DNA of 64,000 bases from an uncultured archaeon (GTDB lineage Archaea > Iainarchaeota > Iainarchaeia > Iainarchaeales > 1-14-0-10-31-34): assembly GCA_964442255.1 (NCBI GenBank), contig CAYTYC010000003.1, positions 7,423 through 71,422 on the forward strand, read 5' to 3'. Shown piece by piece: positions 48,001 to 51,000 of the stretch (positions within the stretch are counted from its first letter, which is position 1; each line of letters opens with the position of its first letter). Position numbers: made by a program.

Positions 48001-51000
48001 TTCGTCCCCAAACTGTGAACCTACAATCAGAGTTGCTGGAATTCCGAATCCCTCAAAAAATAGCATTCAAAGAGTTTAAAAAAACTCCTTTAAGGCAAAC
48101 GGGAAGCCATATTGGCTTCATCCAAAACCCTGTATATTTCTCTTCGCATTTTCTCTGTTTCAGGGAGGCTAAGGTTATGCCGCTCGGCATAATATGTAAC
48201 CATTACCCCGGCTGCTCCCTTTGTATACCGCAGCTTAAGGCCCCCTTTTGCAAACTTCTCTTTTAATGCCCGTTCAACAGAACCCAATCCCCTTTTCATG
48301 CTGAAATTGTCTAATGCAGCCCCCCATAATTTGGGGAATGGCCAACGGCGCATTGCATCTGACACAAGTTGTCTTCCCCCCGCCCCCCCGTATATTGAGT
48401 TCTTGTGATATTCTCTTAAGTTCCGCGCTGTATTCTGCCCCCCTTAGTTTTTCAAGCCTTGCAATTCTTTTCTTCATTGGTCTGGGCGCTTTAGGCATTA
48501 AAGTCCCCCAAAATAAATGGTGTCCCCCGTATTTAACACTTGCGGAGCGAGCAACCTAAACTTCTTCCTGAAAGAGAGGTGCTACGGCATTGGTGTCACC
48601 TGTATTTAACACTTGCGGAGCGAGCAACAGCCATACAAAGTATGGCGCACTGTATTCCCCCCGAAAAAGGAAAACGGAAAGCCCGAAAGGGTTTCCCATA
48701 TTTAAAAGCAGTCTCACGCAAGGCGAGAGATGGGTTGACGCATTTCGACACTTCCGCCCGAAAGCGGGGAATGGGGCGGGGGGGATTTGAACCCTCGACA
48801 CCATGGTCTTCAGCCATGTGCTCTCCTAAGCCTGCAAAAAGAAACCTTTGGATTTCTTGAATGCATCAGGCTGAGCTACCGCCCCAACGCTGAAATGCCT
48901 AACGCAATAACAATTCTTTGGGCAAGGGCTTTAAATGTTTTCTGCCGGGGCTCAACCCCCTGGATGCCTTTTGAGCGATTCTTCCAGATTACGGACCAGA
49001 GAAGAGGTAACGCTCACGCTTAGAAGTCCTTTCAAGATGTCCCTTCTTTTATTTATTGCTTCAACTTCTACTCGTTCTTTCTTTATTTGCTCACGCACAG
49101 TTTCATCCCCTAAAAAATCAGCCATATCCAATCTGTGTTCAATGCTGCCTTCAATAGTTTCCCTGGTTTCCCTGTCCCCAACAATTTCCCTGTGAAGCTC
49201 TCTCAACCCGCCTGAATAACATTCATTCTCGCAAGACCCTGTTGTGCCTGTCCCCTGCTTCCCATGAATCTTGCCTGCCCGCAGGTTATCCACCGGTGCC
49301 CGATAGAAAACAAATTGGTTCTCTTATAATTGCATCCCTATTTTTCTCCAGAGTAAATCCCCAAGCATCCAGCCCTTCCCCGTGCCAGCTACCCACGCCT
49401 CCCCAAATAAGTGTTCCATTTGATGCCCTTCCGCTTCGGTTACATAAAGCTTGATGTCCCTGACATTTTCCCTAACAAGCTTCTGCATTTCCTTTATTTT
49501 TTTAAGGTACGGTTCAGGCAAAGGCGCTATTCTTGGATTATATTTTGGGCCCTGCCTGCAGAATCGGGTTTTGGTACCTTTCCTTCCCCGGCATTTAAGT
49601 TAGATCTTCCTGCTTTCCCTGGAATTCCAATTCCCTTTTTTAAGCGAGCCCGATGGGCGAGCAGATCTGCCTCGGAGCAAAGCGGAGGAGGCAGTGCCCG
49701 GACCTGCCCTACGGAACGGGCAAAGTGAGCCCAGAGGGATTCGAACCCTCGACCCCCTGGTTAAGAGCTGCACCGTAAAGCGCTTTAACGAGCGCTTCAC
49801 TCAGGTGCTCTGGCCAGACTGAGCTATGGGCCCACAAGTGCACGACGGTAAGCGCACTAGCGCGAGCTAGTTCCATGCGTTAGCATGGGACGTTCCCTGG
49901 CGGGAACATCCGCCAAATGAGCCCGCTGGGATTTGAACCCAGGACACCTTGGTTAAAAGCCAAGTGCTTATGGCGAAAACGAGCAACGGAAATCAAATCC
50001 CGCAGCTTACGCCGCGGTTTTTCGGAAGCCCTTTCCCGGACCAATAAAAACCATGACTCTGTTTTCTCTGCCAGGCTGAGCTACGGGCCCATTCTCAAAA
50101 AAAAGGGTTAAGAAAAGAATTTAAAGGGAATCAAAAGGTTATTTTATTTCCTTTAAGCCGTTCATGTATGGGCGAAGGTAAAGGGAATCAAAAGGTTATT
50201 TTATTTCCTTTAAGCCGTTCATGTATGGGCGAAGGGGTTTTGGGATTAAAATGGTTCCTTCCTTGGTTTGGAAGTTTTCCGCAATCGCGCGAAGCATTCT
50301 GGATGCTGCGACCATCGTGCTGTTCAGCGTGTGGACGAACTCCTTTTCATGGGTGTGCCGCTTCCGGTATTTTAGGTTTAGGCGCACGGACTGGTAGGAC
50401 GTGCAGTTGGAGCAGGACATTACTTCAAAATAAGCGTTTTCCCGCGGGCTCCATGCCTCGATGTCATATTTTTTTGCCGCAACAATCCCTATGTCCCCTG
50501 TGCACACATTAACCACCCGGTAGGGGATTTCAAGCGCCTTAACAAATTCCTCCGCGTTTTTCAATAGTTCTTCATGGAATTTCCATGATTCTTCAGGCCC
50601 GCAAATTATTGTCTGCTCAACCTTGCTGAAGTGGTGGACGCGGAACAGCCCGCGCTCGTCAATTTTGTGCCTTCCGATTTCTTTTCTGAAGCAGGGCGAA
50701 ACACCGGCATACTTTAAGGGAAGTTCTTTCCCGGAAAATATTTCCCCGGAATGCATCGCCATCAGGGGGTGTTCGGAGGTTGCAATAAGGTAAAGGTCTT
50801 CGCCCTCCAGCTTGTACATTACGTTCTCAAAATCCTCCAAAGAGGTAACCCCCTCATACGGCTTGCGTTTCATCATAAGCGGGGGGGAAAGAAAGATGAA
50901 CCCTTTTTGCAAAAGCAAATCCAGCCCAAAACGGATCAAGGCCATTTCGAGAAGCGCGGCATGGTTTTTGAGGAAATAAAAACCTGTTCCGGAGATTTTA

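What a model noticed while it worked through the whole genome (the two positions that open the first line are those of the whole stretch)
48773..50095. Two thirds of tRNA genes interrupted, some at non-canonical sites, with only an alpha4-type splicing endonuclease
28 of 44 tRNA genes carry an intron of 14-259 nt, and 13 introns exceed 100 nt. Trp, Cys and Tyr exist only as genes with 147-221-nt introns. Four introns lie outside 37/38; three of these are clustered at C3:56195-57517 and the fourth is in Arg(CCU) at C1:59879-59975. Yet the genome, and 29 of 31 genomes of its order, encode a single ~170-aa EndA of the homotetramer type without the specificity loops. This departs from the published link between endonuclease type and tRNA gene disruption.
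Evidence so far: - The tRNA catalogue comes from calls 5, 28, 79-82, 114, 138 and 156. - BHB test: 13 strict, 7 with h' of 0-1 bp, 5 with H 3/4, and 3 with none. - EndA at C19:20634-21146 aligns to 1a79 over residues 3-168 without an insert. - EndA has no paralogue, and there is one hit per genome in 29 of 31 genomes. - Literature: PMC3239211 (passages read) and PMC5829648 (abstract in listing).
(Added by a program. Inside this text positions count along the whole contig: contig position 7,423 is position 1 of the stretch shown here. "Call 12" and the like, gene names such as g00115 and contig names such as C1 are that model's own, and its searches are not shown. The text may have been shortened before it was handed on; [...] marks where a part breaks off. 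The agent that wrote the report below was given it as the finding of a first reader that could run no searches.)

Follow-up and report, generated by a model that had tools for sequence, protein, structure and literature searches.

The report
Intron-riddled tRNA genes, one plain splicing enzyme
Three neighbouring tRNA genes of a tiny uncultured archaeon are each split by an intron at an unusual place, as part of a genome where two thirds of tRNA genes are split, yet the only enzyme able to cut these introns out is the simplest known type and even lacks one of its three textbook catalytic residues.

Summary
Window 48772-50090 (minus strand) carries tRNA-Lys(UUU), tRNA-Lys(CUU) and tRNA-Phe(GAA). 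Each has one intron outside 37/38: at 22/23, at 30/31 and in the D loop. My own scripts recover 28 interrupted genes among 44 in this Iainarchaeota (DPANN) genome, with introns of 16-259 nt. The splice sites fit the bulge-helix-bulge geometry far above chance. Fourteen introns are strict; 14 are relaxed.

The genome has one EndA of 170 aa. It is collinear with the M. jannaschii homotetramer enzyme and has none of the L1, L2 or L3 inserts. No second EndA-like ORF was found. The order shows the same enzyme, while intron load there runs from almost none to very high.

Kaneta et al. 2018 already tied gene disruption to inserts, not subunit type, and already noted insert-bearing alpha4 enzymes in DPANN. 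This enzyme has no insert, so the departure stands.

New here: the catalytic-triad lysine is Thr or Ala in 120 of 120 homologues.

Tetramer formation and cleavage of relaxed motifs remain untested. The scan had already noted long hairpin-module tRNA introns in other DPANN genomes.

The parts
49918..50090 (-). tRNA-Lys(UUU) gene, 74 nt of exons plus one intron
   Evidence: Rfam RF00005 gives a partial hit at 49923-49989 (33.3 bits). The best cloverleaf score comes after removing 99 nt. The sequence was read.
49969..50067 (-). 99-nt intron in the D arm of tRNA-Lys(UUU), after G22 (22/23). The exon-side helix is weak, so the motif is HBh' type (H4, h1, h'6).
   Evidence: Introns at the same 22/23 site occur in Lys(UUU) of G013 (4,1,5) and Lys(CUU) of G061 (4,2,8).
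49726..49833 (-). tRNA-Lys(CUU) gene
   Evidence: RF00005 scores 49.7 bits over the full model with a 42-nt insertion. ARAGORN calls Lys(ctt).
49769..49801 (-). 33-nt intron in the 5' strand of the anticodon stem (30/31) with a strict hBHBh' motif (H4, h4, h'10)
   Evidence: This is the only placement that gives a 5-bp stem and a 7-nt loop. Introns at the same site occur in G001, G016, G028 and G032 (Lys-CUU) and in G009 (Lys-UUU).
48772..48885 (-). tRNA-Phe(GAA) gene. The T stem has one A.C mismatch.
   Evidence: RF00005 gives a partial hit at 48780-48832 (30.9 bits). ARAGORN calls Phe(gaa) after removal of the intron. The sequence was read.
48827..48866 (-). 40-nt intron in the D loop of tRNA-Phe(GAA) (between G18 and G19 by my numbering) with a strict hBHBh' motif (H4, h3, h'4)
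   Evidence: The pairs were also checked by hand on the sequence.
52848..52940 (+). tRNA-Met(CAT) gene with an 18-nt canonical 37/38 intron at 52887-52904, strict BHB (H4, h5, h'4)
   Evidence: RF00005 scores 51.3 bits.
19027..19358 (+). tRNA-Asn(GUU) gene with the longest intron of the genome (259 nt, 19065-19323, at 37/38). The intron-side helix is missing (H4, h7, h'1).
   Evidence: Rfam did not find this gene in the window.

Best explanation
The stretch is a tRNA gene cluster, Lys(UUU)-Lys(CUU)-Phe(GAA), that is conserved in order across an order of Iainarchaeota (DPANN archaea).

In this genome each of the three genes carries one protein-spliced intron at a non-canonical site. This is part of a genome-wide load of 28 introns in 44 tRNA genes. 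The long introns are mosaics of shared hairpin modules.

Proposed mechanism.
- The pre-tRNA folds so that each exon-intron boundary lies in a 3-nt bulge on either side of a 4-bp helix.
- The only EndA homologue of the genome cuts both bulges.
- RtcB joins the exons.

This EndA is a 170-aa single-unit protein.
- It is collinear with the M. jannaschii homotetramer enzyme, so it most likely acts as a homotetramer.
- It has none of the three inserts (L1/CSL, L2/ASL, L3) that the literature links to broad specificity.
- Its catalytic-triad lysine is replaced by threonine.

Half of the introns are strict motifs that any EndA should cut at any position. The other half lack the intron-side or exon-side helix, or have a mismatch in the central helix. 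Some of these deviations are kept in relatives.

I therefore infer that this plain enzyme is more tolerant than the archetypal alpha4 and alpha'2 enzymes.

Shown: the genes, introns and motif statistics; the single loop-less EndA; the Lys-to-Thr change; RtcB.

Inferred: tetramer formation, actual cleavage sites and tolerance of relaxed motifs.
For: Genes and introns.
- Splice sites set by the cloverleaf alone coincide with BHB geometry. H=4 occurs in 22 of 28 introns against 2.4% of 4412 shifted controls.

Introns are real and heritable.
- The 30/31 intron occurs in Lys genes of 5 other genomes, and the 22/23 intron in 2 others.
- The Trp intron is present in the 5 family genomes whose Trp gene I examined.

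Introns are gained or lost.
- Lys genes are uninterrupted in 18 of 29 relatives' loci.
- All three genes of the cluster are uninterrupted in 13 of those loci.

Relaxed motifs persist.
- The 22/23 introns have h of 1-2 in all three genomes.
- The Trp central helix has 3 of 4 pairs in four relatives, 2 of 4 here and 4 of 4 in one relative. These pairs were read by eye.

Essential tRNAs exist only as interrupted genes: Trp, Cys, Tyr and Asn.

EndA identity.
- Pfam PF01974 scores 96.7 bits and PF02778 scores 35.8 bits. TIGR00324 scores 114.4 bits against a cut-off of 59.6.
- The AF2 model has pLDDT 91.4. Its best structural match is 1a79_A, with TM 0.90, 2.1 A and 169 columns against 171 residues.

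No second EndA-like ORF.
- Searches found none.
- In one search the next-best hit among 12394 ORFs had E=0.21.

No inserts.
- 9 residues separate Tyr and His in 120 of 120 homologues, and none has an internal insert of 3 aa or more.
- The insert-bearing relatives (14-16 residues) belong to clusters named Aenigmarchaeota and Nanohaloarchaea.
- The insert sits in the Tyr-His loop. Published triads give N. equitans Y86/H102 and ARMAN-2 Y236/H251, against M. jannaschii Y115/H125 (PMC2761253; PMC6379350).

RtcB is present.
Against: - There are no RNA data. No RNA run holds the stretch, so no junction has been seen.
- My BHB rule is a simple count of Watson-Crick and G-U pairs on one sequence. Non-standard pairs, alternative registers or helper proteins could complete the motifs that I call relaxed.
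- 14 of 28 introns, and 2 of the 3 in the window, need no broad specificity at all.
- The homotetramer is inferred; the complex predictor was not available.
- The genome is 93.8% complete in 51 contigs, so a second subunit on missing DNA cannot be excluded for this genome. Single-contig relatives (G002, G016, G030) also show one hit only.
- The replaced catalytic lysine raises the question whether this protein alone is a competent enzyme.
- Intron-poor relatives (G030, G002) have the same enzyme type. The enzyme therefore does not explain where introns pile up.
Confidence: 0.6

Rival explanations
1. There is no conflict. Every intron is in practice a good enough BHB for an ordinary strict alpha4 enzyme. 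The 'relaxed' class is an artefact of a crude pairing rule and of boundary uncertainty. The genome is merely an intron-rich organism with a standard enzyme.
For: - 22 of 28 introns have all four central pairs, and 21 of those also have the exon-side helix.
- Five more have 3 of 4 central pairs with good flanking helices.
- A 2026 preprint counts hBH and HBh' among the canonical classes (10.64898/2026.10.13.758758, passages).
- The enzyme is collinear with M. jannaschii EndA.
Against: - The literature read here classes hBH and HBh' as relaxed. It says that only insert-bearing enzymes cut such motifs (PMC5829648 introduction; PMC6379350).
- Seven introns have h' of 0-1 when chance alone would give h' of 2 or more in about 14%. 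The helix is therefore truly unconstrained there.
- Trp has only 2 of 4 central pairs here and 3 of 4 in four relatives.
- Even under this rival, 64% interrupted genes with an insert-less enzyme is outside the trend in Kaneta et al. 2018.
Confidence: 0.22
2. A partner that the searches cannot see supplies the broad specificity or the missing catalytic lysine. It could be a very divergent structural subunit, an unrelated RNA-binding protein, or recognition of the mature tRNA body. The enzyme would then not be a plain homotetramer acting alone.
For: - M. kandleri was long taken for alpha4 until its beta subunit was recognised (PMC5829648).
- The residue aligned with the catalytic Lys is Thr or Ala in 120 of 120 homologues. 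K282A abolishes cleavage in ARMAN-2 (PMC12397907).
- The genome is incomplete, at 93.8%.
Against: - No second ORF with any EndA likeness was found in G000.
- One hit only was found in 54 of 61 genomes of the order, including single-contig genomes.
- The protein keeps both the catalytic Tyr/His and the acidic L10 loop (D155, E157, D159). That combination is what a self-sufficient alpha4 subunit needs.
Confidence: 0.15
3. Some interrupted genes are dead copies or assembly artefacts of a metagenome bin, so the true intron load is lower.
For: - The genome is a 51-contig bin.
- Several interrupted genes sit on short contigs or at contig ends, for example C49:29-245 and C31:71-163.
Against: - The 44 genes give one copy of nearly every expected anticodon, and no uninterrupted duplicates exist for Trp, Cys, Tyr, Asn, Phe or Lys.
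- All spliced products score as full cloverleaves.
- Orthologous introns occur in independently assembled relatives.
- Contamination is 0.23%.
Confidence: 0.03

Closest known systems
Methanocaldococcus jannaschii EndA (PDB 1a79), the archetypal alpha4 homotetramer
   Same: - Same length class (170 against 179 aa) and the same two-domain fold (TM 0.90, rmsd 2.1 A).
- The alignment has no indel in the C-terminal domain.
- Same Tyr-His spacing, and an acidic L10 loop is present.
- It is the single gene in its genome.
   Different: - The catalytic Lys156 position is Thr here.
- M. jannaschii-type enzymes are reported to cut only strict BHB, and their hosts have few, mostly canonical introns. Hirata 2019 classes M. 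jannaschii EndA as alpha4 (PMC6379350); Kaneta 2018 says alpha4 was held to cut only the strict BHB (PMC5829648).
- This genome has 28 introns in 44 genes, half of them relaxed.
L3-bearing alpha4 EndAs of other DPANN lineages and Hadesarchaea (Kaneta et al. 2018, PMC5829648)
   Same: - They are DPANN, single-unit, about 180-200 aa, and associated with many disrupted tRNA genes.
- They share the N-[IL]-[KR]-[TA] motif without the canonical Lys. Examples are P0207, P0208, P0259 and P0260, whose clusters are named Aenigmarchaeota and Nanohaloarchaea.
   Different: - Those enzymes have a 5-7-residue Lys-bearing insert between the catalytic Tyr and His (14-16 residues in between).
- The Iainarchaeota enzymes have 9, as in M. 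jannaschii (120 of 120).
Methanopyrus kandleri (alpha-beta)2 EndA without a specific loop (PDB 5x89)
   Same: - It is the best sequence match among solved structures (E 3.7e-34).
- It also lacks L1-L3 (PMC5829648).
   Different: - It is a heterotetramer with a separate beta subunit.
- It keeps the catalytic Lys (K334).
- It has constrained specificity and its host has few disrupted tRNA genes (PMC5829648 and PMC6379350).
Intron-rich tRNA sets of Thermoproteales and Asgard archaea with (alpha-beta)2 EndA carrying the Crenarchaea-specific loop
   Same: - A high share of interrupted tRNA genes, with non-canonical sites such as 22/23, 29/30 and 30/31.
- Several introns per gene in some relatives.
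- Patchy gain and loss between close genomes, and related sequence shared between introns.
   Different: - Those lineages have two EndA paralogues and the L1 loop (PMC5829648; preprint 10.64898/2026.10.13.758758).
- Here there is one gene and no loop.
- Introns here reach 259 nt and are built of hairpin modules.
ARMAN-2 epsilon2 EndA (PDB 4fz2, 9w2k)
   Same: It is a DPANN enzyme that copes with non-canonical and relaxed introns. It has the same catalytic domain family.
   Different: It is a three-unit fused protein of 395 aa with both the ASL (Y160/K161) and a 5-residue Tyr-His insert. It retains K282 (PMC6379350 and PMC12397907).

Membership tests
Archaeal tRNA-splicing endonuclease EndA (Pfam PF01974 + PF02778; NCBIfam TIGR00324) | Catalytic C-terminal domain and N-terminal domain above the curated cut-offs | tested here: met
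   PF01974 scores 96.7 bits (cut-off 27). PF02778 scores 35.8 bits (cut-off 21). TIGR00324 scores 114.4 bits (cut-off 59.6).
Archaeal tRNA-splicing endonuclease EndA | EndA fold | tested here: met
   The AF2 model has pLDDT 91.4. Foldseek's best hit is 1a79_A, with E 1.7e-17 and TM 0.90/0.89.
Archaeal tRNA-splicing endonuclease EndA | Catalytic Tyr and His | tested here: met
   Y106 and H116 align with the catalytic Tyr and His of 1a79, 5x89, 4fz2 and 1r0v. Both are present in 120 of 120 homologues.
Archaeal tRNA-splicing endonuclease EndA | Catalytic Lys, the third member of the triad (M. jannaschii K156, A. fulgidus K287, ARMAN-2 K282, M. kandleri K334, N. equitans K133) | tested here: not met
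   - The aligned residue is T147.
- It is T in 116 and A in 4 of 120 homologues, and never K.
- It is T29/A2/I1 in 32 genomic EndA ORFs of the order.
- The residue before it is K68/R33/N13/H6.
- The triad numbers come from PMC2761253, PMC6379350 and PMC5829648.
Archaeal tRNA-splicing endonuclease EndA | Arg that holds the flipped bulge base (A. fulgidus R280, ARMAN-2 R275, M. kandleri R327) | tested here: met
   R140 lies seven residues before position 147, as in the cited enzymes. It is present in 120 of 120 homologues. The second recognition residue was not mapped.
alpha4 (homotetramer) type of EndA | One gene only, encoding a single unit of about 170-180 aa | tested here: met
   One hit was found in G000. 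One hit was found in 54 of 61 genomes of the order, with open frames of 166-218 aa for complete ones.
alpha4 (homotetramer) type of EndA | The same subunit carries catalytic residues and the acidic L10 loop used for tetramer assembly | tested here: met
   D155, E157 and D159 align with the L10 segment of 1a79. They are conserved in 120, 119 and 108 of 120 homologues. The role of L10 is taken from PMC6379350.
alpha4 (homotetramer) type of EndA | Forms a homotetramer | not testable with these tools
This needs SEC-MALS, native mass spectrometry or a crystal structure.
EndAs with broad substrate specificity (insert-bearing: L1/CSL, L2/ASL, L3) | An insert near the active site relative to M. jannaschii and A. 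fulgidus enzymes | tested here: not met
   - There is only one one-residue gap against 1a79, in the N-terminal domain.
- The structural alignment to 1a79 has 169 columns, against 179-181 for crenarchaeal alpha subunits.
- 9 residues separate Tyr and His, against 14-16 in L3-bearing homologues.
Bulge-helix-bulge (BHB) introns of archaeal tRNA genes | Two 3-nt bulges holding the cut sites, separated by a 4-bp helix | tested here: met
   All four pairs are present in 22 of 28 introns, 3 of 4 pairs in 5, and 2 of 4 in 1. Shifted controls give 2.4% with four pairs. The geometry rule is recalled, not taken from a call.
Bulge-helix-bulge (BHB) introns of archaeal tRNA genes | Flanking helices h and h' of at least 2 bp (strict hBHBh') | tested here: inconclusive
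   The feature is met in 14 of 28 introns. h' is 0-1 in 7 and h is 1 in 1. This is a single-sequence pairing count, with no probing or covariation analysis.
Bulge-helix-bulge (BHB) introns of archaeal tRNA genes | Excised from the transcript, exons joined | not testable with these tools
   No RNA run holds the stretch.

The most novel reading that the evidence does not exclude
Iainarchaeota carry a fifth functional kind of archaeal splicing endonuclease.
- It is a single-unit, insert-less enzyme that has lost the canonical catalytic lysine, so it runs on Tyr and His plus some other group.
- It nevertheless cuts relaxed and non-canonically placed introns.

Two consequences would follow. The specific loops would not be needed for broad specificity. 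The Tyr-His-Lys triad would not be universal in this enzyme family.
Probability: 0.3. Interest if true: 0.75.

Novelty: new variant of a known kind. Interest (0 to 1): 0.6.

Why it matters
The current account of archaeal tRNA splicing holds that the enzyme and the introns co-evolved. Strict enzymes go with few, canonical introns. Enzymes with an extra lysine-bearing loop go with many, oddly placed and relaxed introns.

Here a whole order uses one plain, loop-less enzyme, while its members range from almost intron-free to two thirds interrupted. Non-canonical sites, two-intron genes and relaxed motifs are kept across genera.

If the enzyme really cuts these substrates, the loops are not the only route to broad specificity. 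Intron load would then be set by something other than enzyme architecture, such as the hairpin modules that fill the long introns.

The replaced catalytic lysine, shared with L3-bearing DPANN enzymes, also questions the statement that the triad is conserved in all EndA types. It gives a simple mutational experiment.

All of this can be tested with one small recombinant protein and a handful of transcripts.

Tried and rejected
- ARAGORN in its default mode found no tRNA in the window, because it does not look for introns. With introns allowed it mislabels many genes; for example Lys and Trp are called Gly, Ser or Glu. I therefore fixed splice sites with my own cloverleaf and BHB scripts.
- My strict cloverleaf parser returned nothing for Phe(GAA) and Ser(CGA). 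I placed those two from ARAGORN on spliced candidates plus BHB and, for Phe(GAA), also by hand.
- My first boundaries for the second introns of the G016 and G028 Lys genes (38/39) gave poor motifs. Sliding by one base to 37/38 gives the same mature sequence, with 4 of 4 and 3 of 4 central pairs. This re-reading was by eye and was not re-run.
- RNA evidence: no RNA holder was listed for window 48700-50150. Only DNA contigs of one study hold it, so I did not lay reads.
- A crude ORF pick gave wrong proteins for three loci (L025-L027). I redid it with an HMM.
- BLAST of the five non-canonical introns against the genome found no other copy. These introns are not members of the module families seen in the long canonical introns.
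- Literature searches for a prior description found none by title, abstract start or the passages I read. The searches were: splicing endonuclease + DPANN + tRNA intron (3 papers); Diapherotrites + tRNA + intron (12 papers); Iainarchae + intron (7 papers); tRNA introns + BHB + archaea + metagenome-assembled (1 paper); and splicing endonuclease, catalytic triad, Nanohaloarchaea (30 papers with two of the terms, 10 listed).
- The supplements of Kaneta et al. 2018 (alignments, Figure 7 data) were not opened. They may show the lysine position in DPANN enzymes.
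Full report
WHAT IS THERE

The window is contig C3:7423-71422 of a 1.28-Mb, 51-contig genome that is 93.8% complete. With 7422 the finding's coordinates are right.

The organism is an Iainarchaeota (Diapherotrites, DPANN) archaeon. Its EndA's nearest relatives carry that name in their sources, and earlier notes of this scan say the same.

Rfam finds four tRNAs in the window. Three of them are the minus-strand genes of the finding: one full hit with a 42-nt insertion and two partial hits. 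ARAGORN without introns finds none.

I read the sequence and scored every possible single excision with a strict cloverleaf model. I also scored each with a bulge-helix-bulge (BHB) count. This gives three genes.
- tRNA-Lys(UUU) spans 50090-49918. Its 99-nt intron lies after G22.
- tRNA-Lys(CUU) spans 49833-49726. Its 33-nt intron lies at 30/31.
- tRNA-Phe(GAA) spans 48885-48772. Its 40-nt intron lies in the D loop.

The cluster lies between a seryl-tRNA synthetase-like ORF and an adenylosuccinate synthetase-like ORF. I named these ORFs from their translations, not from a family search.

THE GENOME-WIDE CATALOGUE

ARAGORN with introns allowed lists 42 genes. The two D-arm cases bring the total to 44.

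The anticodon set is nearly complete. Arg(CCG), Ser(GGA) and a third CAU tRNA are missing.

Twenty-eight genes are interrupted.
- Introns are 16-259 nt long. Twelve exceed 100 nt and one is 99 nt.
- Trp, Cys, Tyr and Asn exist only as interrupted genes.
- Outside 37/38 I find Lys(UUU) at 22/23, Lys(CUU) at 30/31, Phe in the D loop, Arg(CCU) at 29/30 and, by my reading, Leu(CAG) at 36/37.

ARE THE SPLICE SITES MORE THAN CHANCE?

For canonical introns the cloverleaf alone fixes the intron length, and the stem-loop fixes the junction. I then counted three things.
- H: the four central pairs.
- h: the exon-side helix.
- h': the intron-side helix.

The geometry rule (cuts after the second base of each 3-nt bulge) is recalled, not taken from a call.

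Results:
- H=4 occurs in 22 of 28 introns, against 2.4% of 4412 placements shifted by 2-6 bases.
- The strict motif (H4, h>=2, h'>=2) occurs in 14 of 28, against 0.05%.

The remaining 14 introns divide as follows.
- 7 have H4 with h' of 0-1: Asn, Glu-CUC, Cys, Glu-UUC, Ser-GCU, Ser-UGA and Gly-UCC.
- 1 has H4 with h of 1: Lys-UUU.
- 5 have H3: Met, Leu-UAG, Leu-CAA, Thr-GGU and Tyr.
- 1 has H2: Trp.

Of the three introns in the window, two are strict and one is of HBh' type.

THE ENZYME

One EndA homologue exists, at C19:20634-21146 (170 aa).
- Pfam, NCBIfam and beta-subunit models find only this gene.
- A profile built from 257 EndA domains, structural repeats included, finds nothing else among 12394 ORFs. 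The next-best hit has E=0.21.

The protein aligns to M. jannaschii EndA (1a79) over residues 5-169 with a single one-residue gap. The AF2 model (pLDDT 91.4) matches 1a79 best, with TM 0.90 and 169 alignment columns. Crenarchaeal alpha subunits need 179-181 columns.

I located the L3 insert from published triad numbers.
- N. equitans has Y86/H102 and ARMAN-2 has Y236/H251.
- M. jannaschii has Y115/H125 (PMC2761253; PMC6379350).
- The insert therefore lies in the Tyr-His loop.

Among 150 representative homologues, single-unit proteins with 14-16 residues between Tyr and His do exist. Their clusters are named Aenigmarchaeota and Nanohaloarchaea. This matches Kaneta's 'L3-bearing alpha4 in DPANN'.

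The Iainarchaeota enzymes have 9 residues there in 120 of 120 cases, and none has an insert of 3 aa or more anywhere. The claim 'without the specificity loops' therefore stands.

The acidic L10 loop and the catalytic Tyr and His sit in the same chain. This is what a homotetramer needs, but assembly was not tested because the complex predictor was unavailable.

RtcB is present.

AN UNEXPECTED FEATURE OF THE ENZYME

The residue aligned with the third triad member is Thr147. The triad member is K156 in M. jannaschii, K287 in A. fulgidus, K282 in ARMAN-2 and K334 in M. kandleri.

The alignment segment has no gaps against M. jannaschii, M. kandleri and ARMAN-2 (the A. fulgidus alignment has two offsetting one-residue gaps) and is flanked by conserved anchors.
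- The position is T in 116 and A in 4 of 120 homologues.
- It is T29/A2/I1 in 32 genomic copies across the order, the intron-poor genomes included.
- The preceding residue is K68/R33/N13/H6, so it is not a conserved substitute.
- The L3-bearing DPANN homologues also lack the lysine, with Ala or Ser at that position.

Reviews state that the triad is conserved in all four EndA types (PMC6379350; PMC5829648). K282A abolishes activity in ARMAN-2 (PMC12397907).

I found no mention of this change in the passages I read. I did not open the supplementary alignments of Kaneta et al.

RELATIVES

The same single-copy enzyme occurs in 54 of 61 sampled genomes of the order. Among good-quality genomes the figure is 27 of 30.

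Intron load varies widely.
- G030 has 43 matches to the Rfam tRNA model, and every listed row is 71-86 nt.
- G002 is similar.
- G016, G001 and G000 give only 31-33 matches, many of them 90-175 nt long.

The Lys-Lys-Phe cluster is syntenic across the order. The 29 relatives' loci divide as follows.
- 18 carry uninterrupted Lys genes, and in 13 of these all three genes are uninterrupted.
- 7 carry interrupted Lys genes.
- 4 matched other tRNAs.

The seven interrupted cases are:
- 22/23 in G013 Lys(UUU) and G061 Lys(CUU);
- 30/31 in G001 and G032;
- 30/31 plus a second intron near the anticodon in G016, G028 and G009.

These sites are therefore old or recurrent in the order and are gained or lost often.

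Relaxed features persist.
- The 22/23 introns have h of 1-2 in all three genomes.
- The family's Trp introns have 3 of 4 central pairs in four genomes, 4 of 4 in one and 2 of 4 here. These pairs were read by eye.

The long canonical introns share modules. For example, two pairs are 91-98% identical over 43-68 nt between introns of different tRNAs. One roughly 30-nt piece of the Trp intron is scattered through the family's genomes. The five non-canonical introns are unique sequences.

Earlier notes of this scan had already described such hairpin-module introns in this and other DPANN genomes.

HOW IT COMPARES WITH WHAT IS KNOWN

The 2018 paper it cites has already replaced that link (PMC5829648, passages).
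- Inserts, not subunit type, go with disruption.
- L3-bearing alpha4 enzymes of DPANN and Hadesarchaea are named as examples.
- Iainarchaeota were not among its 46 species, going by the species listed in its methods passage.

The finding is therefore a departure from the insert rule: an insert-less enzyme with one of the highest shares of interrupted tRNA genes.

It is only a mechanistic conflict for the 14 relaxed introns. Strict BHBs at odd positions are, by the literature, within reach of any archaeal EndA.

[quoted passage not shown] Marck and Grosjean 2003 and Tocchini-Valentini 2005 are recalled, not read.

VERDICT

I file this as a new variant of a known kind: BHB introns and an EndA-family enzyme, in a combination and with an active-site change not described in what I could search.

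What remains open is biochemical:
- whether the protein forms a tetramer;
- whether it cuts the relaxed substrates alone;
- what stands in for the lysine.

No RNA data were available, and the complex prediction could not be run.

Noticed in passing
G000 C19:20634-21146 (L001:1276-1788), outside the window: The EndA of this genome and of its whole order has Thr (rarely Ala or Ile) where all solved EndAs have the catalytic-triad lysine. The residue before it is K, R, N or H. L3-bearing homologues from Aenigmarchaeota and Nanohaloarchaea clusters also lack the lysine.
   Followed up: yes
window about 50122-50235 (read on the minus strand): There is a 57-bp tandem duplication directly upstream of tRNA-Lys(UUU). 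The first copy holds the last codons and stop of the seryl-tRNA synthetase-like ORF (50196-51485, minus). The second copy repeats them in the spacer.
   Followed up: no
G000 C4:16958-17073 (minus), outside the window: In tRNA-Leu(CAG) the 32-nt intron has a good BHB (H4, h2, h'6) only if placed at 36/37, which gives G37. At 37/38 none of the four central pairs forms. This is probably a fifth non-canonical site.
   Followed up: partly
L053:1395-1545 (G016), L050:1495-1660 (G028), L052:1495-1655 (G009): Lys tRNA genes of three relatives carry two introns each, one at 30/31 and one next to the anticodon. Multi-intron tRNA genes therefore occur in this order.
   Followed up: partly
G000 introns listed, for example C15:27156-27244, C17:16990-17091, C28:12724-12849, C1:84132-84301: Long canonical introns of different tRNAs share modules at 88-98% identity over about 40-70 nt. 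A roughly 30-nt piece of the Trp intron recurs dozens of times in genomes of the family. The long introns look like hosts of a small mobile hairpin element.
   Followed up: partly
G000 C12:38261-38335 (minus); also L052, L057, L061: A tRNA-Ile with anticodon UAU is present here and in relatives, and only two CAU tRNAs were found. AUA may be read by UAU instead of a modified CAU tRNA.
   Followed up: no
G000 C24:7801-7885, C28:12568-12630, C9:30015-30084, C47:289-371, C1:106638-106705: The trailer after tRNA-Lys(UUU) (window about 49860-49917) resembles the trailers of several other tRNA genes of the genome (73-90% over 60-85 nt). This suggests a shared structured 3' trailer.
   Followed up: no
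window 34865-35140 (+): Archaeal SRP RNA scores 150.5 bits over the full model.
   Followed up: no
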